Below, in pieces: positions 7,912 through 59,099 of a DNA stretch of 64,000 bases. The translations under genes and the position numbers were made by a program. The notes below the pieces were generated by a model. That model was not told the origin of the DNA. It worked only from the letters and a program-made list of their open reading frames with translations, and did no database searches. Source of the stretch: Naegleria gruberi (lineage: Eukaryota). Position 1 is the stretch's first letter. Every line of letters starts with the position of its first letter. Location of the stretch: assembly GCA_000004985.1 (NCBI GenBank), contig GG738857.1. One strand, written 5' to 3'.

Positions 7912-8633
7912 TTATCTAACTCTGTAAACCTTAGTGAACTTCAAATAAGCAGAGTAATAACCCATATCTCTTTGACGAACTCCAGTTCTAGAATTTTCAG
8001 CAGAAACAACTTGATTTCCACCAACATAGATACCAACATGCTAAAATATTCGAAACATTATTCGAAAGAAATTAATTTTTTTGTGAAAATTCAATTCAAC
8101 TTACACCTGGTCTGAACAAGATATCACCAACTTCCATTGGTTGTCCAGTAACTTCATAGATATTTCCATTTGGATAAACTCCAGTAGAAGTTGGAACTGT
8201 CTTTCCTTGAGATTTGTAAGCAGTGTAAACTATTTATCCAATAATAAATAATAAAATGGAGAATTGATGCACGATATTCATGAATTATTGATCAATAATT
8301 CATATAATTTCCATTTCCAAAAATACGAAAATTTGTTAATTTTCTAAATATGGAAAGTGTAAAAAAAAACAAACCTAAACCGGAACAATCAAAACATGGA
8401 TTACCAAGTCTATTTTGTTGAGAGTAACATTTACCAACTTGTTGTTGAGCAAATCTGGCAGCATTGACAGCAGCTGGTGAAGCAGTTGAAATGGCATCTG
8501 ACATTTCGTATTCCTTTTCGAAAGTACCCAAGATGGATTCGATAACGGCATCAGATGGGATAGCACTAGCAACAGCAAAAGTAACCAACAATGCGGCAAC
8601 GATTGCGAGAAGAATGACCTTGGAAATTGACAT
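7912..8633 (-). CDS. Secreted NlpC/P60-family peptidase (cell-wall hydrolase-like), 3 exons complement(join(7912..8040,8105..8229,8375..8633))
   Basis: Exon 1 has a signal peptide and the catalytic-Cys motif GNPCFDCSGL. Intron 1 is 145 nt (GTTTGT...AATAG, phase 1) and intron 2 is 64 nt (GTAAGT...TTTTAG, phase 0). The downstream exons restore the NlpC/P60 core (GDILFRPG|HVGIYVGGNQVVSAENSRTGVRQRDM), giving the Cys...His...His arrangement, and end in TAA. Confidence 0.7.
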
Positions 8634-9831: not shown

Positions 9832-12800
9832 TTATTTAATTTTCAAGAGTTTGGATTTCAAGAATTGAAGAGGTTGATCTGATTTGGCTCCTAACAATTC
9901 AAATTTAATCTTGACATCTCCTAAATATTCATCTTCTTGATGGAGAGATTCTGGTGAAGGAATGATTTCCTTCTTGATCTTGTAATATTTAGTTCCATTT
10001 TCAATTTCAGAGAAGGGAATGAAAATAAATCCAATAACCTCAGTTGTCAACATGTCTCTATCACTGACAGAGAATAATAATCCATGCCTTTGAATAATTT
10101 CAGAAACATTTCTAGAAGAAGTGAATTAATTTCCAATAGATTCAAATTGATAACTTACAATGTAAACGTTTCATTATTCCAACGAGGATTCAAATTCTTC
10201 TTGATAGTTTTGGTCTTGTAGGTTTTCTTCTTCTTTTTGGAAGTTAATCCCTTCTCATTTTCAATATTGTAAACCTTTACAAAACCATCACAAAGTCCAG
10301 AAATGGCATCCATGACAGGTAAATTCCTTGCTTCCACAATTTGAACTTTGAGTATCTTTGGAATTGGTGCTAAGAATTTAGTCAATTCGCCACCCATTTG
10401 CTTTCGTTGCAGTATTGGATTAATATGCCAAACCTTGCTAGAGTTATCATTGGAGAAGATGGACCTGATACTACAGAGGAACAAGTGAGAATTAATCTTG
10501 GATTGATTTTCACCTGCCTTGTAAGGAATTTGAGAAGCAGGAATTGTAAATCTAAATGCCTCACTCTTAGTTTCCATGTTGTAAACCTTGATGACAGCAT
10601 TAAGCTGAGACAATAATTCAATTACATCTTCAGGTGGAATTTCCTTCGAGTTAATCACAATATAAATCTTCAATAGAATGGAAAAGTGATAAACTGGAAT
10701 TGGCTCAGGTAACATGAAATCCTTGTTTCTTCTGAATGACAGACGAACCATAGATGGGCTCAATGCTTGAACCTTGCTATCATCAACAGAGTCGAGCATC
10801 ATGTAGCATTGAGTCTCATCATATTCTCCTTGCATTGGCCATTGTACTGATGTGGCAGTTGGCAAGGCTCTATCAATGAGAGCAGCAAACTTTGTACTGT
10901 CATCAGCAAGGTACTTTTCCACACTGCCAGATTTTGGCATTGAATTTGAGGAGCTCAGTACCTTGGTAACATCTCCCTTCCAATTATAACAAATTGCCTT
11001 CATTCTTACAATGGTATGATCGATAAGGTTTTTTGTTTTCTGGGCTTTTTTAGTTGTTCCAGCTGTGAGAGGACTCAAATCACTTCTAAATGGAACCTTT
11101 TTGGTTGTATCTTCCAATCTTACACCAAAGCAAATATATTGTGAAGGAGAAGGAATGGGAGCATGAGACAATCTTTCATTGGTCACTCTTTTATACTTGG
11201 AATCTCCCATTAGGAAGAGATCTGACAAGTAATAAACCCATGAATCATCTCTTTTAGTAACGGAGGAATGGTCTACATCTATTGGCATCCATTCACCAAC
11301 GTAGGAAAGTGACCACTCTTCCTTTTGCTTTCTTTCCATTTTGAAAGCCAACAGGTGTTTGTATCCCTCAAAGTCAGCCACCTCCTTTGGGCCATTGTTT
11401 TCATGATTTGAAATCTTGAAGATATCACATAAAGGAAGAGAGAATAATGGTTTTCTTGTAACTGGATCGATAACAAAAATGTTTCGAATAGTTTCATCCT
11501 CTTCCTTTTCGGCAACAGAGTTTCTTGGTAAATCATCTTCATCCTCAAACGTGACAGTTCTGTTATCCTCCCTAACCGCATGTTCTCGGTAGGAAACAAT
11601 ACAAAAGACAATTCCTGCCTTTTCCACCAATCGAGGAATGATTGCCATTGGATCGATTACGCCATCCAAAATTGGGCCTTCTCTTCTCAATTCCACATGT
11701 TGTTTCTTCAAGAAATAGGCTTCCTTATCAAATGTGAATACAGTGAGTTTAACAAGCAAGTCTGAAGGTTTACAAAGATGAGGATGACTAGCTCCTTGAA
11801 ATTGTAACATGATTGGGTGAGAATTTGAAAACTTGACAGGAAAATCATAAGTTGTAATCTCTTGTCCTTCCTGAACTACAGCAGATCTACAAAGGGAATC
11901 AGCTCCCTTATTGAAATGGTAGTGTCTTATGTGTCTCACAATTGTTGAAAAGCAAGTTTGTTTTGGTTTCTTCTCAACTGACATGTGCTCACCAAGGAAT
12001 TTCATCACAAAGGATTGGCCAGTGGCGTGTGAAACCTTCCCCCAGATGATGCAATTACTTGGATGAGGAGGCGTTGGGAAGTTTCTAATGTTAACTTCAT
12101 TGTTTGACTTGTCAATATAACTCAATCCAAACGAAGAATCAAAAAAGAGATAGCTTGAAATGTTATTCGAAGCAGTGTTGGTAAGGCCCATTCGAGGTAA
12201 TTCTGAATGTTCATATCCATCTCCGATCATTGATACGAAATAAATTTCATGAATATGTTTCAAGTTTTCCAGTTTGAGGTCAAAGTAATCGAACGATGAT
12301 TCGAATGAATTATTGTTTCCTACAACACCAACAGCCATGTGACTGGAAATTGTTGGCTCTCCAGAAACAGTATGGTTACTAAATCTCTTATCGTGACTCA
12401 CAACATCAACAACTCCTCCAACAGAATCCATCAAGACACAGAAATGATTAGTTCTAATTGGTCTTATTCCAATAGCTCTATTCTCCTCTGTTATTCTCAA
12501 CCTCAATTTTTCACTGTCCACAAATATGGAGTTGTTTGAACCTGCTGCCTTTGGAGGAGAATTACTTTTCACATCTCTAGTTTCAAGTACAATGTTATGA
12601 TTCTCTCTAATTGGCTCCAAAACTTTAGGTAAATGGAAAAGACAACTATCATTTGGTAGAGGGAATGGCTGACAAGATAGGGAAGAATTATTGATAGAGC
12701 TGAGAGGATCTGCTAAATCAACCTTGTACTCTTTTTTGAGTCTGTCATAGGATAAACTGAATAATGTTGTAATGGTATTGCTCTTATTCATTAGAGAGGG

Positions 12801-14710: not shown

Positions 14711-17699
14711 ATGGCCGATCACAAAATGGTCTGCAAATTGGGTTTGTGTTTTGAGATGCGAGATTTAAAATTATTTATTAAATGTGTGATGATTACAGGC
14801 TGATAGGAAATATGTGTTGGAAGCTGTTAAACAAAATGGGTTGGCACTTGAAAATGCCGATGAATCTGGAAGCTGTTAAACAAAATGGATTGGCAATTGA
14901 ATTTGCTGATTCATCATTAAAAAAGATAGAGAAATTGTATTGGAATCTGTTAAACAAAATGGATATGCATTTAAATATGCCGATGAGTTATTGAAAAAAG
15001 ATGAAGAGTTTATATTGGAAGTTGTTAAACAAGATGGATTGGCAATTAAACATGCTGATTCATCATTACAAAAAGATAGAGAAATTGTATTGGAAGCTGT
15101 TAAACAAAATGTATATGCACTTAAATATGCAGATTCATCATTGAAAAAAGATAGAGAAATTATATTGAAATCTGTTAAGAAAAATGGATTGACACTTGAA
15201 TTTACTGATTCATCATTGAAGAAAGATAGAGAAATTGTATCGGAAGCTGTTAAACAACATGGATTGGCAATTGAGTTTGCTGATTCATCATTTAAAAAAG
15301 ATAGAGAAATTGTATTGGAAGCTGTTAAGCAAAATGTGTATGCAATTGAATTTGCTGATTCATCATTGAAGAAAGATAGACAATTTGTACTAGAAGCTGT
15401 TACGAAAAATGGATTAGTACTTGAATATGCTGATTCATCATTGAAGAAAGATAGAGAATTTGTATTAGAATCTGTTACGAAAAATGGATATGCATTTCAA
15501 TATGCTGTTTCATCATTTAAAAAAGATAGAGAAATTGTATTGGAAGCTGTTAAACAAAATGGAGCAGCGCTTAAATATGCTGATGAATCAGTTAAGGGAG
15601 ACAGAGAAATTGTATTGGAAGCTGTTAAACAAAATGGATTGGCATTTAAATATATTTATTCATCATTGAAAAAAAATAGAGAAATTATATTGGAAGCTGT
15701 TAAACAAAATGGATCAGCACTTAAACATGCTGATTCATTTTTGAAGAAAGATAGAGAAATTGTATCGGAAGCTGTTAAACAAAATGGATTGGCACTTCAG
15801 TTTGCTGATTCATCATTTAAAAAAGATAGAGAAATTGTATTGGAATCTGTTAAAAAAAATGGATCAGCACTTGAATATGCTGATTCATCATTTAAAAAAG
15901 ATAGAGAATTTATTTATTTGCTATTTAAATTGAACAAAGAAAATGCAAGAAACTTCTCACCATCTATATCCAAAACCATTGAAGAATGCTTAAATATTCA
16001 GAGAAAGCTGTCAAGCAATATAACTGAACAATACTCCAAAATATTTATGGATGAAAAGGATTTATATTATGCTATTGAATTAACAAGTCTCTTTAATCCA
16101 ACACCAAAAGGTACAATATTCAATTTCAATTCTATCTATACACCAATATTTATTGAAAAATTGATTATTTTTCAAATATTGAAACAAATGAACCATTCAG
16201 AATTGTCTAATGATATTATTGCTCTTATTGATTTACAAAGTACCAAAGCTAACTATTATTTATATTGTTTCAGATTGGACAAATTTCTTGAAGATAATCC
16301 CTGTCAATCAACAAGAATGAAAGATTTGAAGAATATTGTGGAACAAGTTGCAACAAACTTTGAAACGTCATTTTATACAAAACAGGAAATTAATGAAATT
16401 ATGATTTTTGCCAACAAGTGGTTTGAAAATGAGCAAACATTTGAAAATTACAAACAAATAATTTGTAAATATAATGAGCTGAGAGGAGATTTATCAAAAG
16501 TATTCAAATCTCTTAATTATTTCTATAATTATTTCAAAAATGATTATGATTTCATTTCAGTATTAGGATATGGAGGTGAAGGTGTTGCATTCAAAGTATT
16601 TCATAAAAGTAGTAAATCATTAAGGGCTTTAAAATTGAAATATGACCCAGAGGAATCTGAAGAATCAACAAAAGAAACCATTAATTTATTGAAAAGAACA
16701 GACATTGAAGGAAAGATCAAATGTTTTGATTGTGAAATTATTCAAAATCATTTATATTCAGTGATGGAACTTGGAGAGGAATCATTATCAAATTACATTT
16801 CAAGAAATAATGAAAGTGAAATTTATAGAAATGGATTCATTATTAAGGAAAAACTAATTGAAATTCTTGATATATTTATCAAAGTATTGAACTCAGTTCA
16901 ATCAATTCATGATCACAATATTTTACACAGAGATTTAGATCCTCAAAATATTGTCAAAGTTCAAGATTTATACAAAATTATTGATTTTGAAACATCAAGA
17001 GTGATCAAGACAGGTAATTCAATTACAATTGCTCGTGGAAAGTTTGCATACATGTCTCCTGAAGTTTCACATGATAATTATTCTGATGATTTATTGAAAA
17101 GTGGTAATGATGAAAAGCTTGCTCACAATGTTGGACAAATTACCATTTCATGTGATATATTTTCATTGGGATGTATTTTGTTGAAATTATTAACCAATTG
17201 TCCTTTGCAACTATGTTCAACATTTCTGAATGATTCAGATGTCTCTAAATATAATGATAATTACTTGTATTTTAGTGGACATGGAAAATATTTCTATACA
17301 GTTGTGACAACAACAGAGGGAGAAATGAAATTACATTATGCAATTGAAAAACTAATCAATGAAACAATTAATCCAGATTTAGGAGTGAATAACATATTGA
17401 TTAGAAGCATTATTAGCATGATTCAAAGAGATTCATCAAAAAGATTGGATTGTTATTCTCACAAGTTAACAATTGAGAATATTTTGAAATTTTTGAAAGG
17501 AGAAATCAAAGATATCACTTTCAATATTGAAAAACAAGTTGGAGAATTGAAGAAAATATCACCATTAAGAAGTTACTCTCAACTTGTAGAGGAAAATACC
17601 AAACTATTAGAAAGAATTAAATTATTGGAAGAGAACTCTTTATTGGAACGAATTAAAATGTTGGAAGAGGAAATAATAAATCTAAAAACAGACCAATAA
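14711..17699 (+). CDS. DUF4116-repeat / atypical protein kinase / coiled-coil family, copy A. The 5' repeat region is disrupted; the main intact ORF is 14940..17699
   Basis: It shares the family 5' structure: ATG at 14711, GTTTGT donor at 14742 and a TTACAG acceptor before GCTGATAGG at 14799. The segment 14860-14935 is out of frame because of a 26-nt deletion plus a 1-nt loss in an A-run, giving three in-frame stops. The ORF from 14940 on has about 13 25-aa repeats (LEAVKQNGxALxYADSSLKKDREIV), a helical linker, a kinase domain (LGYGGEGVAFKV, HRDLDPQN, DFETSR, YMSPEV) and a C-terminal coiled coil (LLERIKMLEEEIINLKTDQ). Confidence 0.6.
14799..15903 (+). repeat. Tandem 75-bp coding repeat array (25-aa DUF4116-like repeats) of family copy A
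   Basis: Visible 75-nt periodicity (gctgttaaacaaaatgg...gattcatcattgaagaaagatagagaaattgtattggaa). Alternative sense frames stay open across the array, which produces spurious ORFs such as 15484..15669. Confidence 0.85.
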
Positions 17700-21513: not shown

Positions 21514-24500
21514 ATGACAAAACTTGTTTCTTGCCTTGCCACGGCCATCAAACTCGGAGTGGTGAGCACGTTTGTGTGCTCTTTTGTTTTGTTTCATATT
21601 TATTTCTTTTTGGAGAGATCTCCACCAGCTAATACAAAGCATTTTGATGATATGAATACTAATCCTTTAAATTTTGCTGATTTGAATTTATTTTCCATTC
21701 ATGATGAGAGTAGTATTGTGAAGGAAGGTTCATCGTCATCACCCGGAAAGAATAGAAGAAGACTTGTTCAACCAAAGAGCTTGAGAAAAATTGCTCTTGA
21801 TGAAATCGGAACTGTAAATTCAACCAAAGTTGTGAATGATGGTATGTAATATTTGTACAATAATTTTCAATTAATAATTAATAATTAACAATAATATAAT
21901 ATACAATGCAATATTCATCAATGAATAACAATAATTTTGGAATACTTGGAAAAATCTTCATCATGTGGATTAACAACAGATGACGAAAAAACATATTATA
22001 CTATTTTCCAAATTCATGGAACTCCTGGATCTAGACGATGGAGGTATCCAGTTGATCATCACTTTGTGAGGACTTTCGGAGGAGACAAAAAGTTGAGAAT
22101 TCTCAGTCTTGATAGACCTGGTATTGGTCAATCTACTCCAATAATATCTAGTATTGACTCGGAAGGTAATCCTGTCTATAATTTGGAACCTTTCAATGTG
22201 GATTATTATGAAGCTAGTGCTTTGGACCTTTTATATGTTGTGAGAAAGTTGAGATTAAAGCACTTTTCACTCTTTGCTTATTCTCAAGGTGCTGCTCATG
22301 CTACAATGCTTTCACACTATTTGGAACAATTAAAGAAGAGAGAACGTGGTGAAAAGGTAACTCATGCTCACTTGAAGAGCACTGAAAGATTCCACAATGA
22401 CTTGATGACCAAGATTTTATTGTCAAAGGATTCCGAAAAGTATTGGACTTTTGAAAATGGAGTTTCAAACTATACATCATCTACTGAATGGTCATGGAAA
22501 GATGTTACCATCGACAGAGTTGTCTTGATGGCACCACAAGGTTTCTATTCAGAAAAGGTCAGACAAGCTCTCTTGAAAGAGCAAGACATGACCATTCCTG
22601 AGCACAAGAGATGGTCTTCAAACCTTCATCAAATTTATTCTTTCCACAATTATCAACCACCACTCGGAACTAATATTGTTCATGCTGTATACAAGATGGT
22701 TTCACAATTGGGATTTATCACTAATATCAAATATTGGGAAGAAAATATGAAATTCATGCTTGATCCTTTGGGAAGAGATTCATTCATTTTCCATGATGAA
22801 GCTACTGGATGGAAGAAGGCTTTTAACAATACCATGATTGATACCTACAGATTTACTACCATGACTTTCCTTGTAGAAGTTTATAATAGTTATTATTTCA
22901 CTGAAAATTATGGACCTAACTTTGATATTTCCTTGAAGAATATTCCAACATGGATTTTGAAAGCTGAGGATGATATTCTTGTTCCAATTGAAGCTTTTAA
23001 TACCTTTGTTGAAAAGGTTTGCACCAATAAGGAAACTTGTAATGTCACTGTTGCTTCCAACACTACCCATTTCCAAATTTTCAAGAATTATTACACACAA
23101 TCTATTCAACACCTTGTGAAGGGAGTTTTTGGAGAAAGTGTCAGCCTTAGAAAGCCAAGAAGAAAGATTATTGTTATTGGTAGTGGTCTTGCTGGCTTGA
23201 CAGCTACTCTCGAATCTGCCTACACCTACGATCAAGATGTCGTTCTCATTGAAAAGGAACCTAGACTTGGAGGAAACAGTGCCAAGGCAACCAGTGGTAT
23301 GAATGCTATCCAAACAACAACACAAAGAAACGTTCTCGTCTTTGATTCATATACTCACTTTTGGAATGATACTATCAAGTCTTTCACAGGAGGAAAGGTC
23401 TTGTCTACCCTCAAGGAAGCTAGAAGAATCATTAGAAATCCAAAGAATAAGAAGAAGGTTGAAGGAGAGGAAAATTTAATTACAGAAAATTCTTGGAGAA
23501 TTTTGGAAACTCTTGTCAAGGATTCCAAGCCAGCCCTCCAATTCTTACAATCATTTGATGTGAAAATGGATGTTGTTTCCCAATGTGGAGGCCACTCAAA
23601 GCCAAGAACTCACAGAAGCATTAACAAGAGTGACAAACCAATTAACATTGGAAGTGATATTATTTCCAAGCTCTCTGCTTTTATTAGAGAAAAATTGGCT
23701 GAGCGTGTTGTCATCAAGACTGAACATCATGCCATTCAATTAATTTCTGAAGAAAATGATCTTGGAGAAACCATTGTCAAGGGTGTCAAGGTTTTGAACA
23801 TTAAGGAAAATACTACTGAAACAATTATGGGAGATTCTATCATTTTGGCAGCTGGTGGTTATGGTCAAGATAGAGATGGTTATTTGAAGCAATTCGCTCC
23901 ACACTCTGTCAATTTACCATCAACTAATGGTTTGTGGGCAACAGGTGATGGTATAAAGATGGCTGTCAGAGATGTAAACGCATCCTTGATTGATATGGGA
24001 GAAATTCAAATTCACCCTACTGCCTTTGTTGATCCAGCCAATCCTACTGCAATGACATTAATTCTCGCTCCAGAATCATTGAGAGGTTATGGTGCTATTA
24101 TTGTCAATCAAGAGGGTAAGAGATTTGTCAATGAATTGGGTACAAGAGATGAAGTCAGTGATGCCATCTTTGAAAATTGTGGAAGGAAGGAAATTATCCT
24201 CACGTTACTGCCTACATGATTATGAATGAATTTGTTATGAAATCATTTGGTGAAAGCTTGACCTCCTTCTATGCCAAGAAGGGTCTCATTCGTAAATATG
24301 AAAACTTTGAAGATTTGTGTCAAAAGGAAGAATTGAACATGTCTGCCAACTTTTGTGCCAACCTCGAAGATACCATTATTGATTATGATTATTCAGTCGA
24401 TTATAGAAGATCAGATCCTAACTATAAGGATTCATTTGGAAAGACAGTTTTCCCATCTAAATTCAATTTGGAAAAGAGTAAGGAAACTACTCCATTCTTT

Positions 24501-24731
24501 GTGGCAAGAATTACACCTGCTGTTCACTACACTCAAGGTGGTCTCTTATTCAACAATAAGGCACAAGTTTTGCGTAGAAAGACTCAAGATACAAACGAAG
24601 TAATTAGAAATCTCTATGCTGCCGGTGAAGTCACTGGTGGATGTCATGGTAAGAATCGTTTGGCAGGTAACAGCTTGTTAGAATGTGTAGTTTTTGGTCG
24701 TATTGCTGCCTCAGAAGCTGCCCAAGAATAA
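21514..24731 (+). CDS. Fusion protein of an N-terminal membrane anchor, an alpha/beta-hydrolase-like domain and a soluble FAD-dependent (NADH-type) fumarate reductase domain. The assembly has a frameshift near 24180-24215. Proposed exons join(21514..21841,21980..~24200) with continuation in another frame to 24731
   Basis: ORF 21514..21849 (TM anchor) ends at a GTATGT donor. A 138-nt AT-rich intron (21842..21979, ...AACAACAG, phase 1) joins it in frame to ORF 21937..24219. That ORF has a hydrolase region (nucleophile elbow FAYSQGAA) and the FAD-binding FRD N-terminus ([14 protein letters not shown]...[14 protein letters not shown]). ORF 24177..24731, in another frame, carries the FRD C-terminus ([10 protein letters not shown]...[33 protein letters not shown]). 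The frame switches within the GGAAGGAAGG tract. Confidence 0.6.
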
Positions 24732-26033: not shown

Positions 26034-27705
26034 TTATTCGAAAGTTACTATTTCAGCGTTTTGTAAAGTATCTAATAGAAAAGATTTGGCAATTTCGAAA
26101 GGTGTCGCCTCAGCAAACAAACAAGTCAGTACAATCTTGACATTTTGTTTCCATGCGAAAATACTTGCAAAAATTCTTCCCTCCACAAGAATAATCTTGT
26201 CGAAAGTTGTATTCGAAAGTAGATTCGTAATTTCAGTGGTAGAAATTGGTTTCTTTTCTGCAATTTCTTTCATAAAATCAGAAGAATCGTCCAAATCGCA
26301 TTTTGCATTCAATATAAATCGAATAGTTTCGTATTCTCCAATTAACATGCTTTCAATTCTAGTTTTCTTCTCAACAAATGAAGATAGCAAATGTAATTTC
26401 AGAAACTTTCCAATACTAAACACATTTCTTCCATTCAAGTCAGTTGATTCTCCTTTAGGCCATTCCACTTTCGTCCTTTTTGGCAATTCTTGCATTCCAA
26501 GTTGTTTCGTCTCAGGTATATATTGGAAACGAAACTCGACATGAGCTAAACGATCGATAAATAATTTCTCCTCGTAGATTCTTCCAGGTTCCAAATCTTC
26601 TGGAAAGATTGATAATTTCTCAGTTTCGAATGAAACTTTCTTTCCATTGGACGAATCAGTTCCCATTACGGTAATTCCACCATTCCATCCATTTCCTGAA
26701 AAATTGTAATTCCATTCTCCATTCTTACCACTTTCTGCATAGAAAGATCCATGAGAATTCTTGGAATTATTACAAGCTGAAAGATTAGTGACATTTGAAA
26801 GATTGACAACTCTTTCTACCCAAAAATTCATAATTCCATTTGCAACTCTACTTCTCTTTTCCTTAATTCTCAAATCTTTTGCCAATCTTTGCAAAAATGA
26901 TAAAACTTGTGCAAATTCTTGTTGATTTTCATAATCTTTTAAAACTTGTTTACAAAATCTTACAATGGATTGATCGTATTTTACAAATAAATTATGGAAA
27001 ATTTGATTATTCTGAATAGATTGAGTGTAAATCTCCATTTCATATTTGAATTGTTCACTGAAAATTTGAAATTCCATTACAATTTCATGATGATCAATTG
27101 ATTGATCAATAATCAAGTTTAAATCTTGACGATTATTGTAATGTAAAATGCCAATTCGTTCAAAATCATTTTCTCTAAACCAAACTCTTCCCAAATCTTT
27201 ATCAGATTTTTCCATTGTAAAAGTGGAAGGTAGTTCAATTGACCAAGGATAAGTTTTGTAAAGTTTGAAACCTTCTGTAAGAGTTTCAGGTGGATTTACA
27301 ATAGAAAGTGAACATTCTAAATGTAAAACACCTCCTTTATCAAATGGGAGTTCTATGTATTTGCGCAAACCAGGTTTTAATTGGTCAATTGACAATTGGC
27401 AACTTCCAATCAATTTCTAATAAACTTTCCATCAATTTAAACTAAACTAATTGACTTACATTTGATTGAAAACGATTCCAGTCATATAACCGAAACATTA
27501 TCTGCTCATCATTCTGAAGAGATGTAAATTTCACATTCAAATTCCATTCGGGATTCAAAGTCTCCTTGATTACTGACGTTTTGATTGCATCATTTTCCTT
27601 CTCTGATTTTAAATAACAAGTTAAATAGGGATCACTCGTACCAGATCTATCAGCAGCATGAATATTTGTTGCTTTGATGATTTTTAATTGCAATTCAGTT
27701 GACAT
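26034..27705 (-). CDS. C2-domain protein (N-terminal C2 followed by a domain of unknown function of about 450 aa). Exons complement(join(26034..27416,27460..27705))
   Basis: ORF 27442..27705 (MSTELQLKIIKATNIHAADRSGTSDPYLTCYLKSE...) ends at a GTAAGT donor. A 43-nt intron (27417..27459, GTAAGT...TTATTAG, phase 0) joins it in frame to ORF 26034..27413, which completes the C2 domain (KLIGSCQLSIDQLKPG...YIELPFDKGGVLHLE). Confidence 0.75.
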
Positions 27706-27871: not shown

Positions 27872-30574
27872 AATGTCTGAAGATTGGGTTTGTGTTTTGT
27901 GATGCGATTTTATTAATGGGGGTGTGATGACTATCACAAATAATAGGCCGATAGGACATATGTGTTAGAAGCTGTTAAACAACGTGGAAATGCACTTAAA
28001 TATGCCGATGAAGCATTTAAAAAAGATAGAGAAATTGTATTGGAGGCTGTTAAAAAAAACGGATTAATAATTCAATATGCTGATTCATCATTGAAAAGAG
28101 ATAGAGAAATTGTATTGGAAGCTGTTAAACAGCGTGGATATGCAATTCAATATGCTGATTCATTGTTAAAGAAAGATAGAGAAATTGTATTGGAATGTGT
28201 TAAACAAGATGGATTGGCACTTGAATATGTTGATTTATCATTACAAAAAGATAGAGAAATTGTGTTGGCAGCTGTTAAACAAAATGGATTGGCACTTCGA
28301 TATGCTGATTCATCATTGAAAAAAGATAGAGAAATTGCATTGGAATCTGTTAAACAACGTGGATATGCAATTCAATATGCTGATTCGTTGTTAAAGAAAG
28401 ATAGAGAAATTGTATTGGAAGCAGTTAAACAAGATGGATTGGCACTGCAATATGCTTATTTTCAAAATGACAGAGAAATTGTATTGGAAGCTGTTAAGCA
28501 AAATGGATCAGCAGTTGAATACGCTGATTCATCATTGAAAAAAGATAGAGAATTTATATTGGAATCTGTTAAACAACATGGATTGACTCTTAAATATGCT
28601 GATTCATTATTGAAGAAAGATAGAGAAGTTGTTTCGGAAGCTGTTAAACAAGATATATTGGCACTTAAATATGTTGATTCATCATTTAAAAGAGATAGAG
28701 AATTTATATTGGAAGCAGTTAAACAACATTCATTGGCACTTGAATATGCTGATTCATCTTTACAAAGAGATATCGTTTTTACTTATTCACTTTTTAAATT
28801 GAACAAAGAAAATGCAAGAAAGTTCTCACCCTCTATAACCAAAACCATTGAAGAATCCATTAATCTTCAGAGAAAGCTGTCAAGCAATATAATTGAACAA
28901 TACTCCAAAATATTTATGGATGAAAAGGATTTATATTATGCTATTGAATTAACAAGTCTCTTTAATCCAACACCAAAAGGTACAATATTCAATTTCAATT
29001 CTATCTATACACCAATATTTATTGAAAAATTGATTATTTTTCAAATATTGAAACAAATGAACCATTCAGAATTGTCTAATGATATTATTGCTCTTATTGA
29101 TTTACAAAGTACCAAAGCTAACTATTATTTATATTGTTTCAGATTGGACAAATTTCTTGAAGATAATCCCTGTCAATCAACAAGAATGAAAGATTTGAAG
29201 AATATTGTGGAACAAGTTGCAACAAACTTTGAAACGTCATTTTATACAAAACAGGAAATTAATGAAATTATGATTTTTGCCAACAAGTGGTTTGAAAATG
29301 AGTAAACATTTGAAAATTACAAACAAATAATTTGTAAATATAACGAGCTGAGAGGAGATTTATCAAAAGTATTCAAATCTCTCAATTATTTCTATAATTA
29401 TTTCAAAAATGATTATGATTTCATTTCAGTATTAGGATATGGAGGTGAAGGTGTTGCATTCAAAGTATTTCATAAAAGTAGTAAATCATTAAGGGCATTA
29501 AAATTAAAATATGACCCAGAGGAATCTGAAGAATCAACAAAAGAAACCATTAATTTATTGAACAGAACAGACATTGAAGGAAAGATCAAATGTTTTGATT
29601 GTGAAATTATTCAAAATCATTTATATTCAGTGATGGAACTTGGAGAGGAATCATTATCAAATTACATTTCAAGAAATAATGAAAGTGAAATTTATAGAAA
29701 TGGATTCATTAAGAAGGAAAAGTTGATTGAAATTCTTGAAATATTTATCAAAGTATTGAACTCAGTTCAATCAATTCATGATCACAATATTTTACACAGA
29801 GATTTAGATCCTCAAAATATTGTCAAAGTTCAAGATTTATACAAAATTATTGATTTTGAAACATCAAGAGTTATCAAGACAGGTAATTCAATTACAATAG
29901 CTCGTGGAAAGTTTGCATACATGTCTCCTGAAGTTTCACATGATAATTATTCTGATGATTTATTGAAAAGTGGTGATGATGAAAAACTTGCTCACAATGT
30001 TGGACAAATTACCATTTCATGTGATATATTTTCATTGGGATGTATTTTATTGAAATTATTAACAAATTGTCCATTACAACTATGTTCAACATTTGTTAAT
30101 GATTCAGATGTCTCAAAATATAATGACAAGTATCCATATTTTAGTGGTCATGGAAAATATTTCTATACAGTTGTAACAACAACAGAGGGAGAAATGAAAT
30201 TACATTATGCAATTGAAAAACTAATCAATGAAACGATTAATCCAGATTTAGGAGTGAATAACATATTAATTAGAAGCATTATTAGCATGATTCAAAGAGA
30301 TTCATCAAAAAGATTGGATTGTTATTCTCACAAGTTAACAATTGAGAATATTTTGAAATTTTTGAAAGGTGAAATCAAAGATATCACTTTGAATATTGAA
30401 AAACAAGTTGGAGAATTGAAGAAAATCTCACCATTAAGAAGTTACTCTCAACTTGCTGAAGAAAATAACAAAATTACAGATGAAAAAACCAAACTTTCGG
30501 ATGAAAATAGCAACCTGTTAGAAAGAATTAAAATGTTGGAAGAGGAAATAAGAAAACTCACACAAACCATATGA
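27872..30574 (+). pseudogene. DUF4116-repeat / atypical kinase / coiled-coil family, copy B, interrupted by an in-frame TAA at 29303..29305. Exon 1 is 27872..27886 and the intron is 27887..27945
   Basis: The micro-exon ATGTCTGAAGATTGG (MSEDW) is followed by a GTTTGT...AATAG intron and an exon 2 in frame from GCCGATAGG. ORFs 27962..29305 and 29558..30574 lie in one frame. They are separated only by a TAA where every other copy has CAA (ENE*TFENYKQ against ENEQTFENYKQ). There is also an in-frame deletion in one repeat (YAYFQNDREIV). Confidence 0.7.
27946..28790 (+). repeat. Tandem 75-bp coding repeat array of family copy B (about 11 repeats)
   Basis: Periodic LEAVKQxGxALxYADSSLKKDREIV units at nucleotide level. 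Confidence 0.85.
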
Positions 30575-40128: not shown

Positions 40129-41330
40129 ATGTCCACAAGTGATATTCAACCTCTCCGTTTTGGCTTCTTCTCCACCTCAAGAATTGGCATCAAAGTCGCC
40201 AAAGCAATTGCTCAATCTCCTTTTGCTTCGTTGTACGCTGTTGCCTCTCGGGATTTGTCCAAAGCTGAAAAATACGCTCAAGAACAAGGCTTTGAGAAGA
40301 GTTTCGGATCCTATGATGAATTGTTGCAATGTGCTGAAGTGCAAGCTGTCTATGTGCCTGTGCCTACAGCAATGAAGGAAGAATTGGTGATCAAGGCAGC
40401 AAAGGCAGGAAAACACGTCTTGTAAGTATTATACTTTAGATGATCAATTTTAATATTTTAATTATTTTAATTATTTTAATTATATTAATTATATTAATTA
40501 TAATCAAATAATGCAATTATTATAATGATGATGAACGATTGGAATATCGGAATAGATGTGATAAGCCATTTCAATCTGCTGAATCTGTTAAAAAGATGAA
40601 GCAAGCTTGTGAGGAAAATGGAGTCTTCTTCATGGACAATACAATGTGGGTTCACAATAAGAGAACTCATCATTTGAAGAATTTATTTAACACTGATGAT
40701 AGATTTAAAAAGCTCGTCAGAGTTAATTCTTCATTTGCTAATTATTTCATGGATGATTTGCATGACATTAGAATGAATACTGATTTGGAAAAGACTGGGT
40801 GTCTTGGGGACTTGGGTTGGTACTCTATTAGAAATATTTTGTGGGCTTTTAATTATGAATTACCACAAAAAGTTGTTGGATATTCAAAGAAATTCGAATC
40901 TGATCAAGAAAATTTGAGAGCAATTATTAACTTTGATGGTCTTTTATTCTTCAGTGGTGGCAGAGTTGCTACATTGAATTGTAGTTTTGAGGAAGCACAA
41001 AGACAAACCTCTGAAATTGTCTTTCCACGTCACAGAATTATGATTGATGATTTTGTTTTAACTTGGGACAATGAAGATATTTACTTCCCAAGAGAAACTT
41101 ACGATAAGAAAGGTAAATTCAGAATTCATGCTGAACATGGCAGATTTGAAACTATTACTTGTGAAGAATCAACTCAACATGTGGAATTATTTGAAAGTTT
41201 CTATAAGGGAGCTAAGAATCCAACAGAAAACAAACATTGGGGAGACGAATCTGAAAAGACAATGATTGTATTGGATGCATTATTAGAATCCTCTGAGAAG
41301 GATGGTACTCCTATCGTCATCCAACAATAA
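40129..41330 (+). CDS. Gfo/Idh/MocA-family NAD(P)-dependent oxidoreductase, 2 exons join(40129..40421,40556..41330)
   Basis: Exon 1 has the Rossmann N-terminus (RFGFFSTSRIGIKVAKAI...VYVPVPTAMKEELVIKAAKAGKHVL). A 134-nt AT-rich intron (40422..40555, GTAAGT...AATAG, phase 2) restores the conserved KAGKHVL|CDKP (EKP-type) motif with ORF 40539..41330. Confidence 0.75.
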
Positions 41331-46000: not shown

Positions 46001-48516
46001 TTATTGTTTGAGTTTTCTATTTTCCTCTTCCAATATTTTAATTCTTTCTAACAGGTTGCTATTTTCCATGGTGTTTTCATCCAAAAGTTTATATAGGTTG
46101 GTGTTTTCCTCTGCGAGTTTGGTATTTTCATCCGAAAGTTTATCAACTTCCTCTGCAAGTTGAGAGTAACTTCTTAATGGTGATATTTTCTTCAATTCTC
46201 CAACTTGTTTTTCAATATTCAAAGTGATATCTTTGATTTCACCTTTCAAGTATTTCAAAATATTCTCAATGGTTAACTTGTGAGAATAACAATTCAATCT
46301 TTTTGATGAATCTCTTTGAATCATGCTAATAATGCTTCTAATCAATATATTATTCACTCCTAAATCTGGATTAATTGATTGATTGATTAGTTTTTCAATT
46401 GCATAATGTAATTTCATTTCTCCCTCTGTTGTTGTCACAACTGTATAGAAATATTTTCCATGTCCACTTAAATATGGATACTTGTCATTATATTTAGAGA
46501 CATCTGGATCATTAACAAATGTTGAACATAGTTGCAGAGGACAATTTGCTAATAATTTCAATAAAATACATCCCAATGAAAATATATCACATGAAATGGT
46601 AATTTGTCCAACATTGTGAGCAAGCTTTTCATCATTATCACTTTTCAATAAATCATCAGAATAATTATCATGTGAAACTTCAGGAGACATGTAGGCAAAC
46701 TTTCCACGAGCAATTGTAATTGAATTACCTGTCTTGATAACTCTTGATGTTTCAAAATCAATTATCTTGTATAAATCTTGAACTTTGACAATATTTTGAG
46801 GATCTAAATCTCTGTGTAAAATATTGTGATCATGAATTGATTGAACTGAGTTCAATACTTTGATAAATATATCAAGAATTTCAATCAACTTTTCCTTAAT
46901 AATGAATCCATTTCTATAAATTCCATCTTGATTATTTCTTGAAATATAATTTGATAATGATTCCTCTCCAAGTTCCATCACTGTATACAAATGATTTTGA
47001 ATAATGTCACAATCAAAACATTTGATCTTTCCTTCAATGTCTGTTCTTTTCAATAAATTAATGGTTTCTTTTGTTGATTCTTCAGATTCCTCTGGGTCAT
47101 ATTTTAATTTTAATGCCCTTAATGATTTACTACTTTTGTGAAATACTTTGAATGCAACACCTTCACCTCCATATCCTAATACTGAAATGAAATCATAATT
47201 ATATTTGAAATAATTATAGAAATAATTGAGAGCTTTGAATACTTTTGATAAATCTCCTCTCAGCTCATTATATTTACAAATTATTTGTTTGTAATTTACA
47301 AATGTTTTCTCATTTTCAAACCACTTGTTGGCAAAATTCATAATTTCATTAATTTCCTGTTTTGAATAAAATGATGTTTCGAAATTTGTTGCAACTTGTT
47401 CCACAATATTCTTCAAATCTTTCATTCTTGTTGATTGACAGGGATTATCTTCAATAAATTTGTCCAATCTGAAACAAAATAAATAATAGTTAGCTCTTTC
47501 TGAAAGAACATTTTCAGTGGATAATTCTGAATGGTTCATTTGTTTCAATATTTGAAAAAAAATCAACTTTTCAACAAATATTGGTGTGTAGATAGGATTA
47601 AAATTGAATATTGTACTTTTTGGTGTTGGATTAAAGAGACTTGTTAATTCAATACCATAATATAAATCCTTTTCATCCATAAATATTTTGGAGTATTGTT
47701 CAATTATATTGCTTGACAGCTTTGTCTGAAGATTAATGGATTCTTCAATGGTTTTGGTTATAGAGGGTGAGAACCTTCTTGCATTTTCCTTGTTCAATTT
47801 AATTAATAAATAAATAAATATACTATCTTTTTTAAATGATTCATCAGCATGCTTAAGTGCCAATCCAGCTTGTTTAACAGATTCCAATATAAATTCTCTA
47901 TCTTTTTTCAATGATGAATCAGCATATTCAAGTGCATATCCATCTTGTTTGACAGACTCCAATACAATTTCTCTATCTTTTTTAAATGATGAATCAGCAA
48001 ATTCAAGTGCCAATCCATCTTGTTTGACAGATTCCAATACAATTTCTCTATCTTTTTTAATATTGAATCAGCAAATTCAAGTGCCAATCCATGTTGTTTA
48101 ACAGATTCCAATATAAATTCTCTATCCTTTTTCAATGATGAATCAGCATATTTGAGTGCTGGTCCATAGCGTATAACAGCTTCCAATATAATTTCTCTAT
48201 CTTTTTCCAATGATGAATCAACATATAAAAGTGTCAATCCATTTTGTTTAATAGCTTCCAACACAATTTCTCTATCTTTTTTAAATGCTGGATCAGCATA
48301 TTGAAGTGCCAACCCATTTTGTTTAACAGCTTCCAATACAATTTCTCTATCTTTTTTCAATGATGAATCAGCATTTTCAAGTGTTGATCCATTTTGTTTA
48401 ACAGCTTTCAACACATATTTCCTATCGGCCTATTGTTGCAATCATGAATCATCACACCAATAAAAATAATTATTTTCTCCACAGCAACAAATACCAACCC
48501 ACTCGTTTTTGTTCAT
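46001..48516 (-). pseudogene. DUF4116-repeat / atypical kinase / coiled-coil family, copy C, with a frameshift near 48058. Exon 1 is complement(48499..48516) and the intron is 48430..48498
   Basis: The micro-exon ATGAACAAAAACGAGTGG (MNKNEW) is followed by a GTTGGT...CAACAATAG intron. ORFs 47908..48414 and 46001..48037 overlap in different frames. A 1-nt loss in tcttttttaatattgaatca (consensus tcttttttaaatgatgaatca) at about 48058 explains the shift. The repeat array is shorter (about 8 units). The C-terminal tail has extra LxEEN(T/S)xL mini-repeats. Confidence 0.65.
47830..48429 (-). repeat. Tandem 75-bp coding repeat array of family copy C (about 8 units)
   Basis: Same unit. Includes the frameshifted unit near 48058. 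Confidence 0.8.
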
Positions 48517-49598: not shown

Positions 49599-50726
49599 AT
49601 GGGTGGAAAGCTCTCTTCGAATCACAATCATCATCAACACTCCAACAACACTCCACTTCTGCAACAAACTAAACATTCGAATAACAATGACAATCATCAG
49701 AGAATAGTTTTACTGGGAAATACTTCAAGTGGAAAGTCAACTATTTGTGAAATGATTCAATATCAGAAACAACATCAAGCAGATAAATCATGCAATACTT
49801 ACAACCTATTCTATAAGGTAGATTCGAATACAATTTCAAAAACTATTATTGAACAGATATTGTTTGCATCAAAGGATATATCTATTGAGGCAATTATTCG
49901 AGAATATACAAATGATTGCAATAATTTTGATAATTCTACACTTTTTGCATTGTGGAATGATCAGAAATTTAGAAATATTTATCAGAGCTGTCAAGATTCT
50001 CTCAATTTATTCGAAAATGTTGACATTTTTGTAAGGAAACTTAAGAATCATGAAAGTTTCATTCCAGATATTTACATTAAGGGAAATTCTTCTGGAATTA
50101 CAGAGTATGACATTAATTTTGATGACAAGAAAGTGACATTTGTGACTGCAGGTGGAAAAACAAGTGAAAGAAAAAAGTGGAATTTCTGCTTGCAAGGAAA
50201 TGTTTCCGTTTTGGTTTATGTTGTTTCGTTGGCAGAATTCAATCAATCAGGTTATGGAGATGAGAAGGTGAATAGAATGGACGAAAGTTTGAAACTTTAC
50301 AAGGAATTGATGACTCGTGTTTCGAATAGTGGTAATAATACGAGAGTTGTCTTACTGTTTACCAAACCAGATATAATGATGAGGAAACTGAGGAGTTACA
50401 TTGAATTTGGAAGATTATTCGAAACTGAAACACTTACTGATCTTTCACGAATTGTAAACGATTATCACGAAAGGGATGTTCTCAATACAATTATATCGAG
50501 TTTTTTAACCGAAACAAATAATATTTATGGGAAAATACCAGAATATCACATTATTCAGTCGATATCAGAATTGGACATTTCACAACTCGCCAAACTAATG
50601 TTGAATAATGAGAAAAATAGACATTATATTTCTAATTGCTTGTTTGAGAAAATATCGCTTGTGAGATGTTATCAATTAGTGATGGCTCAACAATTGACCG
50701 ATTTAACAATTAAGTGTCAATTATAA
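49599..50726 (+). CDS. Heterotrimeric G-protein alpha-subunit-like protein, highly divergent
   Basis: MGGKLSS N-terminus with the myristoylation Gly2. G1 is LLGNTSSGKST (compare LLGAGESGKST). VTAGGKTSERKKW sits where DVGGQRSERKKW belongs. LLFTKPD sits where NKxD belongs. The real start is the ATG at 49599; the ORF-track start at 49494 is a TTG. Confidence 0.8.
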   Translation: MGGKLSSNHNHHQHSNNTPLLQQTKHSNNNDNHQRIVLLGNTSSGKSTICEMIQYQKQHQADKSCNTYNLFYKVDSNTISKTIIEQILFASKDISIEAIIREYTNDCNNFDNSTLFALWNDQKFRNIYQSCQDSLNLFENVDIFVRKLKNHESFIPDIYIKGNSSGITEYDINFDDKKVTFVTAGGKTSERKKWNFCLQGNVSVLVYVVSLAEFNQSGYGDEKVNRMDESLKLYKELMTRVSNSGNNTRVVLLFTKPDIMMRKLRSYIEFGRLFETETLTDLSRIVNDYHERDVLNTIISSFLTETNNIYGKIPEYHIIQSISELDISQLAKLMLNNEKNRHYISNCLFEKISLVRCYQLVMAQQLTDLTIKCQL

Positions 50727-53900: not shown

Positions 53901-54533
53901 CAATACAATTTCTCTATCTTTTTTAAATGATGAATCAGCATATTGAAGTGCCCACCCATTTTGTTTAACAGCTTCCAATACAATTTCTCTATCCTTTTTA
54001 AATGATGAATCAGCATCTTCAAGTGCCGATCCATTTTGTTTAACAGCTTCCAATATAATTTCTCTATCTTTTTTAAATGATGAATCAGCAAATTCAAGTG
54101 CCAATCCATTTTGTTTAACAGCTTCCAATATAATTTCTCTATCTTTTTTAAATGATGAATCAGCGTATTGAAGTGCCAATCCATAGTGTTTAACAGCTTC
54201 CAATATAATTTCTCTATCTTTTTTCAATAATGAATCAGCGTATTCAAGTGCTGGTCCATAGCGTTTAACAGCTTCCAATACAATTTCTCTATCTTTTTTA
54301 AATGATGAATCAGCATATTGAAGTGCCCACCCATTTTGTTTAACAGCTTCCAATACAATTTCTCTATCCTTTTTAAATGATGAATCAGCATCTTCAAGTG
54401 CCGATCCATCTTGTTTAACAGCTTCCAACACATATTTCCTATCGGCCTATTGTTGTGATCATGATCATCACATTTTATATAATAATTATTTCACCACACA
54501 GCAACAAATACCAACCCACTCGTTTATGTTCAT
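50958..54533 (-). CDS. DUF4116-repeat / atypical kinase / coiled-coil family, copy D, the only apparently intact member. Exons complement(join(50958..54446,54516..54533))
   Basis: The micro-exon ATGAACATAAACGAGTGG (MNINEW) is followed by a 69-nt GTTGGT...AATAG intron (54447..54515). The exon-2 ORF encodes about 23 25-aa repeats, a linker, a kinase domain with the same atypical motifs as the other copies, and a coiled coil (LLERIKVLEEENRKLKQN). It ends in TAA followed by the 3' flank ttgtttgagttttctattttcc shared with the other copies. Confidence 0.8.
52715..54446 (-). repeat. Tandem 75-bp coding repeat array of family copy D (about 23 units, highly homogenised)
   Basis: Near-identical 75-nt units. 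Both alternative sense frames and one antisense frame are stop-free, which gives spurious ORFs 53321..54433 and 52840..53196. Confidence 0.9.
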
Positions 54534-57500: not shown

Positions 57501-58279
57501 CTCGATGAATACTAAGTGGAAAAATTCCAACTCTCTTGATGGTGATATTAGACATCCCTACTAATGATACTATGTTGTTGAAATTGATGATGATTCACCA
57601 ACTTGAATTTGTCCAATATCAAAATTACTATCTAATTCCATAACGATAAACTTCCACATAAAACTACTATTATTACTATTATATTGATGATGTATAGATG
57701 ATGAGGTTCCATTCTTGGAGTGGGAAGTTGAAGAACCACTCCGAAAATAAGCTACTCATAAAATTGATATTTTTTTTTGAATGCAAGATACGTCTTGGTT
57801 GAGTTTACTATTCTTTCGATGTCTTTGAGGCTCAAAACTGTGCAATTGGCTTCAGACTCAATATTAAGGAAGTATTGCTTCCATTTTTATTTTGCTTACT
57901 GGATTTTCCAGGAAAGATTTCTCTTAATATTGATAGACGTGGTACTGATAATTTTATAACTGTTAATGGTTTTGGTCCAAAATATGTCAGTAGTGGTACT
58001 GTTATTGCACGAGATAATTCTAAAGGTTATGAAATTTTTAATGCAAATAGAATTTATGATTTATTGTAAATACAAAATGAAGAAAATCAATAAAACTATT
58101 AAATAAATATTTTGTGAAATTGTTATGGCTGATGAAACACTTCTAGTAGTAGTACTTCCATATCTATTAATTGAATTGTTTACGGGAGGAAAAAAAAAAC
58201 TACTTTCATCAAAATTAACGCCTCCAGATGTGCATCCACAGCGCTGGCTATAACAAGAAAATGGACTTGTTGTACAATA

Positions 58280-58825: not shown

Positions 58826-59099
58826 TGTTTTCTTGTTTGTTGACTCATCTCAATTTGCCACCGCAACTAAATAGAATTGCAAAGAAGAAATGGGTGACCT
58901 TTCATGTCCACTTAAACAAAAAAGATCAATAAAAATGATCCCAAAACGATTATTATAACATATCAGGTAGTTAAATCCAAAGTGAAAGGACGTCCATACA
59001 GTCAAATGATCCACAAACATGTCAATCCCCATTGATTCTGTGTCACCCACATAAAATAATATTCGTAATTAATAATTTGTATATTTGGGTCTATTTGTC

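What the first reader, a model, noticed from the sequence alone, without database searches (positions are those of the whole stretch)
27872..27961. Conserved 5' micro-exon (M-x-x-x-[DE]-W) and a tiny intron with non-GTAAGT donors in every family member
Upstream of each repeat array the repeat frame has no ATG and an in-frame TAG. Each copy has an ATG 80-95 nt upstream, followed by 12-15 nt and a GT donor: GTTTGT in the + strand copies A and B, GTTGGT in the - strand copies C and D. A 59-69 nt intron follows and ends AATAG or TTACAG, exactly in phase with GC(C/T)GATAGGAAATATGTG. The examples are ATGTCTGAAGATTGG|gtttgt (27872) and ATGAACATAAACGAGTGG|gttggt (54533). Automatic gene callers would miss this micro-exon, and the ORF-track N-termini (MCDDYRLIGN..., MLEAVKQ from GTG) are not real starts. 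In copy A the micro-exon phase is broken by a 1-nt difference, in line with its other 5' lesions.
Basis: seen in the sequence. Interest (0 to 1): 0.55.

Follow-up and report, generated by a model that had tools for sequence, protein, structure and literature searches.

The report
Annotated start-codon micro-exon, Naegleria kinase genes
The tiny first exon and short intron at the front of these Naegleria gruberi repeat-kinase genes are in the sequence and almost certainly genuine, but the public 2010 gene models already contain them, so the finding is correct and ordinary.

Summary
The window is Naegleria gruberi NEG-M nuclear DNA. It carries a tandem cluster of DUF4116-repeat/protein-kinase paralogs. 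At all four 5' ends visible in the window there is an ATG in an A-run context, then 12-15 coding nt ending in TGG, a GT donor (GTTTGT in A and B, GTTGGT in C and D), a 57-69 nt intron, and an AG directly before GC(C/T)GATAGGA. In B, C and D this is in phase with the repeat ORF. In A it is off by one nt.

The splicing reading is well supported. The only intact copy (C) has 1162 open codons after the acceptor and no in-frame Met for 625 codons. Phase is kept although the exon differs by 3 nt and the intron by 10 nt between subgroups.

It is not new. XP_002679628.1, XP_002679627.1 and XP_002679513.1 begin MNINEW|ADRKY, MNKNEW|ADRKY and MSEDW|ADRTY, and two of them map exactly onto these exons. 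So the claim that gene callers would miss the micro-exon is wrong.

GTAAGT is the usual donor in this window (5 of 6 other introns). GTTTGT also serves an unrelated NlpC/P60 gene. No transcript data could be examined.

The parts
27873..27887 (+). Copy B exon 1 (micro-exon): ATG TCT GAA GAT TGG = MSEDW, preceded by tttaaaaaaa
   Evidence: It equals the first 5 residues of XP_002679513.1 / NAEGRDRAFT_65322.
27888..27946 (+). Copy B intron 1: 59 nt, phase 0, GTTTGT...AATAG. It contains the invariant TGTGATGA.
   Evidence: Residues 6-349 of the public model map from 27947.
27947..30574 (+). Copy B main exon (DUF4116 repeats, central region, kinase). It is interrupted by an in-frame TAA at 29303..29305, where copy A has CAA.
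54516..54533 (-). Copy C exon 1: ATGAACATAAACGAGTGG = MNINEW
   Evidence: Residues 1-6 of XP_002679628.1 / NAEGRDRAFT_65330 map here.
54447..54515 (-). Copy C intron 1: 69 nt, phase 0, GTTGGT...CAATAG
50958..54446 (-). Copy C main exon. It is the only fully intact copy: 1162 codons, with the first internal Met at codon 625. It carries 17 DUF4116 matches and a Pkinase match.
48499..48516 (-). Copy D exon 1: ATGAACAAAAACGAGTGG = MNKNEW
   Evidence: Residues 1-6 of XP_002679627.1 / NAEGRDRAFT_65328 map here.
48430..48498 (-). Copy D intron 1: 69 nt, GTTGGT...CAATAG
46001..48429 (-). Copy D main coding region. A 1-nt deletion in an A-run near 48040 causes a frameshift, which the public model bridges with a 68-nt GT-AG 'intron'.
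14711..14741 (+). Copy A exon 1 as in the public model (MADHKMVCKL plus one G, phase 1). The ancestral ATG at 14726 is shifted by a 1-nt insertion relative to B.
   Evidence: XP_002679510.1.
14742..14798 (+). Copy A counterpart of the family intron: 57 nt, GTTTGT...TTACAG. Splicing here gives an immediate TGA. The public model instead uses an acceptor AG at 14924-14925, giving a 184-nt intron.
14926..17699 (+). Copy A main exon as in the public model
8230..8374 (-). Comparator: intron 1 of an unrelated NlpC/P60 gene, with donor G|GTTTGT
   Evidence: The spliced protein matches PF00877 in one stretch across both junctions. The unspliced ORF had no hit.

Best explanation
These are ordinary U2-type GT-AG spliceosomal introns, 57-69 nt long and in phase 0. 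They sit 5-6 codons into a recently duplicated cluster of Naegleria gruberi genes that encode DUF4116 repeats followed by a Ser/Thr-kinase-like domain.

Exon 1 supplies only the A-rich start context, the AUG, and 4-5 residues ending in Trp. Splicing joins it to an exon that opens with A-D-R-x-Y-V-L-E-A-V-K-Q, the start of the first DUF4116 unit.

The donors GTTTGT and GTTGGT keep G+1, T+2, G+5 and T+6, and have G at -1. By inference, this compensates for the mismatches at +3 and +4 to the usual GTAAGT. The invariant TGTGATGA, 12-23 nt before the AG, is the likely branch-point region (inferred).

Shown: the sequence anatomy, the phase, the conservation, and identity with the public gene models. 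Inferred: that the intron is actually removed in vivo.
For: 1. Organism and family. The best hits are N. gruberi proteins from one 573,072-bp scaffold. The proteins match DUF4116 (E = 0) and Pkinase (E = 3.9e-24).
2. A start codon is needed. From the acceptor, copy C is open for 1162 codons, with its first in-frame Met at codon 625. Copy B's first Met is at codon 323. A stop lies immediately upstream in frame. The repeat-like coding sequence ADRxYVLEAVKQ runs right up to the AG.
3. Conservation. The donor block TGG|GTT(T/G)GT, TGTGATGA and AG|GC(C/T)GATAGGA are invariant. Between the A/B and C/D pairs, exon 2 is 80-83% identical, the intron 63-66% and the upstream region 42-60%. Exon 1 differs by exactly 3 nt (15 vs 18) and the intron by 10 nt (59 vs 69), yet the phase is kept.
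4. The ATGs sit in the A-run context seen at other clear starts in the window, for example 7044, 8633, 38483 and 40130.
5. Public gene models. XP_002679628.1 and XP_002679627.1 map exactly onto these exons. XP_002679513.1 maps from the predicted acceptor at 27947 and begins MSEDW, which is the exon 1 translation. XP_002679510.1 uses the same donor.
6. Short GT-AG introns are normal here. Six others of 43-145 nt were found. Four are verified by Pfam domains that run across the junctions, and one of these uses G|GTTTGT.
7. For copy B only about 166 nt separate its ATG from the divergent C2-domain gene's ATG (about 27706). This leaves little room for any other upstream exon.
Against: - No transcript evidence was examined. 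The public models are predictions and may rest on the same sequence logic, so the agreement is not fully independent.
- An in-phase ATG...GTNNGT arrangement arises by chance in 8-24% of shuffled upstream regions.
- The four copies are recent duplicates, so conservation partly reflects shared descent rather than selection.
- Three of the four copies carry lesions (A: 5' frameshifts; B: nonsense TAA at 29303; D: frameshift). Only copy C gives a clean test.
- Alternative in-phase donors exist in B (GTTTTG) and C (GTGGTG, GTGAAA, and an upstream ATG with GTGGGT).
Confidence: 0.85

Rival explanations
1. Same acceptor, but a different exon 1. Either another in-phase donor a few nt downstream is used (B: MSEDWVC|GTTTTG; C: MNINEWVGICCC|GTGGTG), or another upstream ATG is used (C: ATG at -112 with donor GTGGGT).
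For: One search lists these alternative in-phase models.
Against: These alternative donors are not conserved between the A/B and C/D subgroups, whereas TGG|GTT(T/G)GT is invariant. They lack G at +5. The public models do not use them. For B the upstream space is only about 166 nt.
Confidence: 0.06
2. No splicing. The short ATG frame is an upstream ORF (B: MSEDWVCVL*; C: a 15-codon uORF). The repeat-kinase ORF is then translated from a non-AUG codon (GTG 27962 / 54431) or from the first internal AUG, which would skip the repeats.
For: The unspliced frame does terminate shortly after the micro-exon. The donors are weaker than the local GTAAGT norm.
Against: Copy C keeps 625 codons, including 17 intact DUF4116 units, open upstream of its first AUG, which would be pointless under internal initiation. 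The coding-like conservation extends 5 codons upstream of the GTG, to exactly the AG. By general knowledge, efficient GUG initiation is rare in eukaryotes.
Confidence: 0.04
3. The cluster is largely decaying pseudogenes. On this view the conserved 5' block reflects only recent duplication or gene conversion, with no current function.
For: Copy A has 5' frameshifts, B has a TAA at 29303, and D has a 1-nt deletion. C and D are 82-94% identical across all 5' segments.
Against: Copy C is fully intact over 3.5 kb in a 30%-GC genome. The more diverged A/B versus C/D comparison still keeps the splice signals and the phase, while the upstream sequence has drifted to 42-60% identity. The lesions lie mostly in homopolymer runs and could be assembly errors. 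Pseudogene status of some copies would not contradict a real intron in the functional ones.
Confidence: 0.05

Closest known systems
Deposited N. gruberi NEG-M gene models XP_002679628.1 (NAEGRDRAFT_65330), XP_002679627.1 (NAEGRDRAFT_65328), XP_002679513.1 (NAEGRDRAFT_65322) and XP_002679510.1
   Same: The first three begin with exactly the proposed micro-exon peptides, followed by ADR(K/T)YVLEAVKQ. XP_002679513.1 maps from the predicted acceptor at 27947.
   Different: The public models also add doubtful 'repair' introns around the lesions in B and D.
Start-proximal introns with very short first exons in intron-poor eukaryotes, for example many Saccharomyces cerevisiae ribosomal-protein genes (from my own knowledge, not tested here)
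   Same: The AUG plus a few codons form exon 1. A single 5'-biased intron follows. The organism has few introns per gene: N. gruberi has 1.7 exons per gene (PMC8296547).
   Different: The yeast introns are long (hundreds of nt) with strict GTATGT and TACTAAC signals. These are 57-69 nt with GTTTGT or GTTGGT donors and a loose TGAT-type branch region.
NlpC/P60 gene intron 1 in the same window (8374..8230, - strand)
   Same: It has an identical G|GTTTGT donor and an ATAG acceptor. Splicing is validated by a continuous PF00877 match.
   Different: It is 145 nt long, in phase 1, lies in the middle of a catalytic domain, and belongs to an unrelated gene.

Membership tests
U2-type (GT-AG) spliceosomal intron | GT at the 5' end and AG at the 3' end | tested here: met
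   All four copies have GTT(T/G)GT...(T/C)AG.
U2-type (GT-AG) spliceosomal intron | Removal restores a continuous reading frame that encodes a coherent protein | tested here: met
   In B, C and D the exon 1 frame joins the repeat ORF in phase 0. A is off by 1 nt.
U2-type (GT-AG) spliceosomal intron | Branch-point-like element (yUnAy) 10-40 nt upstream of the AG | tested here: inconclusive
   The invariant TGTGATGA contains GTGAT and TGATG 12-23 nt from the AG. Other introns in the window have TTGAT or TTAAT at similar distances. No species consensus was available and no branch point has been mapped.
U2-type (GT-AG) spliceosomal intron | Donor close to the species consensus | tested here: inconclusive
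   Five of the six other introns in the window use GTAAGT and one uses GTTTGT. The family donors match at +1, +2, +5 and +6 only. The sample is too small to give a genome-wide frequency.
U2-type (GT-AG) spliceosomal intron | Spliced product observed in RNA | not testable with these tools
   No transcript collection was reachable. The protein-fragment search and the junction search in metagenome contigs found nothing.
U12-type (minor) intron | Donor [AG]TATCCTT and a TCCTTAAC branch site | tested here: not met
   The donors read GTTTGTGT and GTTGGTAT, and there is no TCCTTAAC in the introns.
Intron-encoded C/D box snoRNA (considered because of GTGATGA) | C box near the 5' end, D box (CTGA) near the 3' end, a terminal stem, and a length of about 70 nt or more | tested here: not met
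   The C-box-like motif lies at the 3' end of a 57-69 nt intron. There is no conserved CTGA downstream: only copy A has GCTGAT. Rfam gave no match at gathering score.
DUF4116 repeat proteins (PF13475) | Significant matches to PF13475 | tested here: met
   Copy C: E = 0 with 17 stretches. Copy A: E = 6.9e-200 with 12 stretches.
Protein kinase superfamily (PF00069) | A Pkinase domain match above the gathering score | tested here: met
   E = 3.9e-24 at 85.9 bits against a cut-off of 31.7. Catalytic competence was not assessed. The sequence has HRD, but DFE in place of DFG (read).

The most novel reading that the evidence does not exclude
The weak, non-consensus donors next to the start codon might serve regulation or repair.

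(a) Intron retention would turn the micro-exon into a short uORF, giving splicing-dependent on/off control of these kinases.

(b) In copy A, the +1 insertion in exon 1 (phase 1) together with a repeat-internal cryptic acceptor (AAAAAAG|AT at 14925, preceded by a CTGAT branch-like site) could bypass three 5' lesions and keep the paralog expressed, as the public model XP_002679510.1 implies.
Probability: 0.12. Interest if true: 0.3.

Novelty: already known. Interest (0 to 1): 0.08.

Why it matters
It matters little beyond quality control. It shows that reading raw sequence can recover a 15-18 nt start-codon exon correctly. It also shows that ORF-based N-termini (GTG 'MLEAVKQ') are wrong for this family.

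For N. gruberi annotation, the more useful by-products are these:
- Only one of the four checked paralogs (NAEGRDRAFT_65330) is intact.
- The deposited models for the other three contain doubtful 'repair' introns that hide a nonsense codon and homopolymer frameshifts.

Tried and rejected
- Exact-protein look-ups of the locus. Nothing was on record, so the public exon tables could not be read directly. I mapped the public proteins onto the window myself instead.
- Search for assembled-transcript protein fragments starting MNINEWADRK. Only 4 distant hits of 49-57% identity came back, and not even the parent protein was returned. This is uninformative.
- Exact search for the spliced junction GAKTGG|GCYGATAGGAMATATGTGTT in metagenome contigs. 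No hits.
- Literature search for a Naegleria splice-site consensus. None was found. The 2010 genome paper is not held. Only general statistics were recovered: GC 33%, 1.7 exons per gene, mean intron 203 bp. RNA-seq project PRJEB23822 exists.
- GTAAGT count in the window: 21 observed against 19.8 expected, so hexamer counting cannot identify donors. GGTTKGT is enriched, 27 against 12.3 expected, but partly through family duplication and antisense coding matches. I did not pursue it.
- snoRNA idea for the invariant GTGATGA. Rejected on position and size, the missing D box, and no Rfam hit.
- Other Naegleria species. The N. lovaniensis (P0027) and N. fowleri (P0108) DUF4116 proteins have unrelated N-termini, so no cross-species test of the intron was possible.

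Full report
**What the window is.** Protein searches with the spliced copy C sequence return, as best hits, Naegleria gruberi proteins that all lie on one 573,072-bp scaffold. The window's GC content of about 32% matches the 33% reported for N. gruberi NEG-M, which has 1.7 exons per gene and a mean intron length of 203 bp (PMC8296547). The family consists of an N-terminal array of DUF4116 repeats (PF13475, E = 0, 17 stretches in copy C), a unique middle region, and a protein-kinase domain (PF00069, E = 3.9e-24). Five copies lie in the window:
- A: 14711..17699, + strand.
- B: 27873..30574, + strand.
- D: 46001..48516, - strand.
- C: 50958..54533, - strand.
- A fifth copy, 61466..64000, - strand. 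It contains a run of N, and its 5' end lies beyond the window.

**Checking the observation.** A script located the elements exactly.
- B: ATG at 27873; exon 1 ATGTCTGAAGATTGG (MSEDW); intron 27888..27946 (59 nt, GTTTGT...AATAG); exon 2 from 27947, GCCGATAGGACATATGTG.
- C: ATG at 54533; MNINEW; intron 54515..54447 (69 nt, GTTGGT...CAATAG).
- D: ATG at 48516; MNKNEW; intron 48498..48430 (69 nt, GTTGGT...CAATAG).
- A: ATGs at 14711 and 14726; donor GTTTGT at 14742; paralogous intron 14742..14798 (57 nt, ...TTACAG). Exon 1 is 31 or 16 nt, which is one nt out of phase.

Small corrections:
- The in-frame stop in A is TGA rather than TAG.
- B has GGACAT where the others have GGAAAT.

**Is it more than chance?** The bare pattern is not. 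An in-phase ATG...GT arrangement occurs in 79-92% of dinucleotide shuffles of the 200 nt upstream, and one with GTNNGT in 8-24%. Alternative in-phase models also exist in B and C. The weight comes from context.
1. From the acceptor, copy C is open for 1162 codons, and its first in-frame Met is at codon 625. Copy B's first Met is at codon 323. A stop codon lies in frame just upstream. Seventeen intact repeats would go untranslated without an upstream start.
2. Coding-type conservation (A-D-R-x-Y-V-L-E-A-V-K-Q) runs up to exactly the AG.
3. Between the A/B and C/D subgroups, exon 2 is 80-83% identical, the intron 63-66%, and the upstream region 42-60%. Three blocks are nevertheless invariant: TGG|GTT(T/G)GT, TGTGATGA, and AG|GC(C/T)GATAGGA. 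Exon 1 differs by 3 nt and the intron by 10 nt, and the phase is still kept.
4. The ATGs sit behind an A-run, like other unambiguous starts in the window.
5. For B, the divergent C2-domain gene starts at about 27706. That leaves only about 166 nt of intergenic DNA for any other first exon.

**It is already annotated.** The deposited proteins begin as follows:
- XP_002679628.1 (NAEGRDRAFT_65330, 1168 aa): MNINEWADRKYVLEAVKQ.
- XP_002679627.1 (NAEGRDRAFT_65328, 792 aa): MNKNEWADRKYVLKAVKQ.
- XP_002679513.1 (NAEGRDRAFT_65322, 730 aa): MSEDWADRTYVLEAVKQ.

Mapping them back onto the window reproduces exon 1, intron 1 and exon 2 exactly for C and D. For B, the model maps from the predicted acceptor at 27947 and starts with the exon 1 peptide; its 5-residue exon 1 was too short for the mapping seeds. 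XP_002679510.1 (copy A; MADHKMVCKL|DREIVLES) uses the same donor in phase 1 and a downstream acceptor AG at 14924-14925. More distant N. gruberi paralogs, and the N. lovaniensis and N. fowleri DUF4116 proteins, have unrelated annotated N-termini. The motif therefore belongs to this tandem cluster, not to the wider family.

**The donors.** I identified six other introns in the window:
- 1214..1258 (+ strand, 45 nt, GTAAGT).
- 8374..8230 (- strand, 145 nt, GTTTGT).
- 8104..8041 (- strand, 64 nt, GTAAGT).
- 10158..10112 (- strand, 47 nt, GTAAGT).
- 27459..27417 (- strand, 43 nt, GTAAGT).
- 40422..40555 (+ strand, 134 nt, GTAAGT).

Four are validated by homology. The spliced NlpC/P60 protein matches PF00877 in one stretch across both of its junctions, whereas its unspliced first ORF had no hit. 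The two spliced C2 domains each match PF00168 across their junctions. The 40422 intron restores the K-H-V-L-C-D-K-P motif of a Gfo/Idh/MocA-type oxidoreductase; the motif assignment is from my own knowledge.

GTAAGT is thus the local norm, and 'non-GTAAGT' is a fair description. GTTTGT is nevertheless demonstrably usable by an unrelated gene. All five GTT(T/G)GT donors have G at -1, while none of the five GTAAGT donors does (the 40422 donor read). This fits compensation in U1 pairing, which is an inference from general splicing knowledge on a tiny sample. Short introns of 43-69 nt are common here despite the 203-bp genome mean.

**Mechanism.** Transcription starts within roughly 100-170 nt upstream. 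The pre-mRNA carries AUG plus 4-5 codons. A phase-0 U2-type intron is removed, probably using the TGTGATGA region as the branch site. Translation then proceeds from the micro-exon AUG into the DUF4116 array and the kinase domain. The anatomy, phase, conservation and agreement with the deposited models are shown. Splicing itself is inferred. I put 0.85 on this reading. The rivals are a different donor or exon 1 (0.06), no splicing with a uORF and non-AUG or internal initiation (0.04), and mere pseudogene relics (0.05).

**State of the copies.** Only C is intact.
- B has CAA changed to TAA at 29303, in an otherwise collinear alignment with A.
- A and D each lack one A of an A7 run. A also has a roughly 26-nt deletion in its first repeat.
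- The public models hide these lesions behind GT-AG 'introns' of 450, 184 and 68 nt. These look like gene-caller repairs and need transcript data.

**What could not be done.** No transcript data were reachable. The locus look-ups, the fragment search and the junction search gave nothing. Rfam found no RNA family in the window. The 2010 genome paper is not held.

**Verdict.** The feature is an ordinary start-proximal spliceosomal intron that has been in the public annotation since 2010. Interest is low.

Noticed in passing
window 29303..29305: Copy B has an in-frame TAA where copy A has CAA. The flanks are otherwise about 98% identical. The public model XP_002679513.1 removes 450 nt (about 28980..29429) as an in-frame GT-AG 'intron' that skips the stop. 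This is likely a pseudogene or a truncated, kinase-less product rather than a real intron.
   Followed up: partly
window 14919..14925 (copy A) and about 48040..48046 (copy D): Each copy lacks one A of the A7 run in the K-K-D codons of a repeat, which shifts the frame. The public models bridge these with GT-AG 'introns' of 184 nt (A) and 68 nt (D). They could be slippage mutations or homopolymer assembly errors.
   Followed up: partly
window 62807..62856: A run of 50 N (assembly gap) lies inside the fifth family copy (61466..64000, - strand). That copy's 5' end lies outside the window.
   Followed up: no
window 49599..50726 (+) and 60624..61028 (+): A G-protein alpha subunit gene (PF00503, E = 1.9e-45; starts MGGKLSS) lies next to copy C. 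A C-terminal G-alpha fragment (E = 3.5e-16) lies next to the fifth copy. This suggests a segmental duplication of a G-alpha/kinase pair, with one G-alpha copy decayed.
   Followed up: partly
window 8374..8230, 8104..8041, 10158..10112, 27459..27417 (all -), 1214..1258 and 40422..40555 (+): Six further short GT-AG introns of 43-145 nt. Five have GTAAGT donors and one has GTTTGT. Four are confirmed by Pfam domains running across the junctions.
   Followed up: yes
window 27706 (-) to 27873 (+): A C2-domain gene (ATG at about 27706, - strand, behind an A10 run) and copy B (ATG at 27873, + strand) start only about 166 nt apart, so they share a very short divergent promoter region.
   Followed up: partly
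window 24150..24230 (+): The alpha/beta-hydrolase plus FAD-binding (fumarate-reductase-like) ORF 21937..24219 changes reading frame to ORF 24177..24731 with no obvious GT-AG intron. This is either a frameshift or a very small, unusual intron.
   Followed up: no
family introns: 14784..14791, 27923..27930, and the equivalent sites in C and D: TGTGATGA is invariant in all four introns, 12-23 nt before the AG. It is probably the branch-point region. It resembles a C box (RUGAUGA), but neither the size nor the position fits a snoRNA. A similar TGTGATGG lies about 30 nt upstream of the ATG in C and D.
   Followed up: partly
window 55000..60600: This stretch has only short, broken ORFs on both strands and no Pfam hits. 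It is possibly a decayed mobile element or other degenerate sequence between the duplicated gene pairs.
   Followed up: partly
whole window: GGTTKGT occurs 27 times against 12.3 expected (0 of 100 shuffles reach 27). Part of the excess comes from the duplicated family sequence. Whether the remaining sites are donors was not checked.
   Followed up: no
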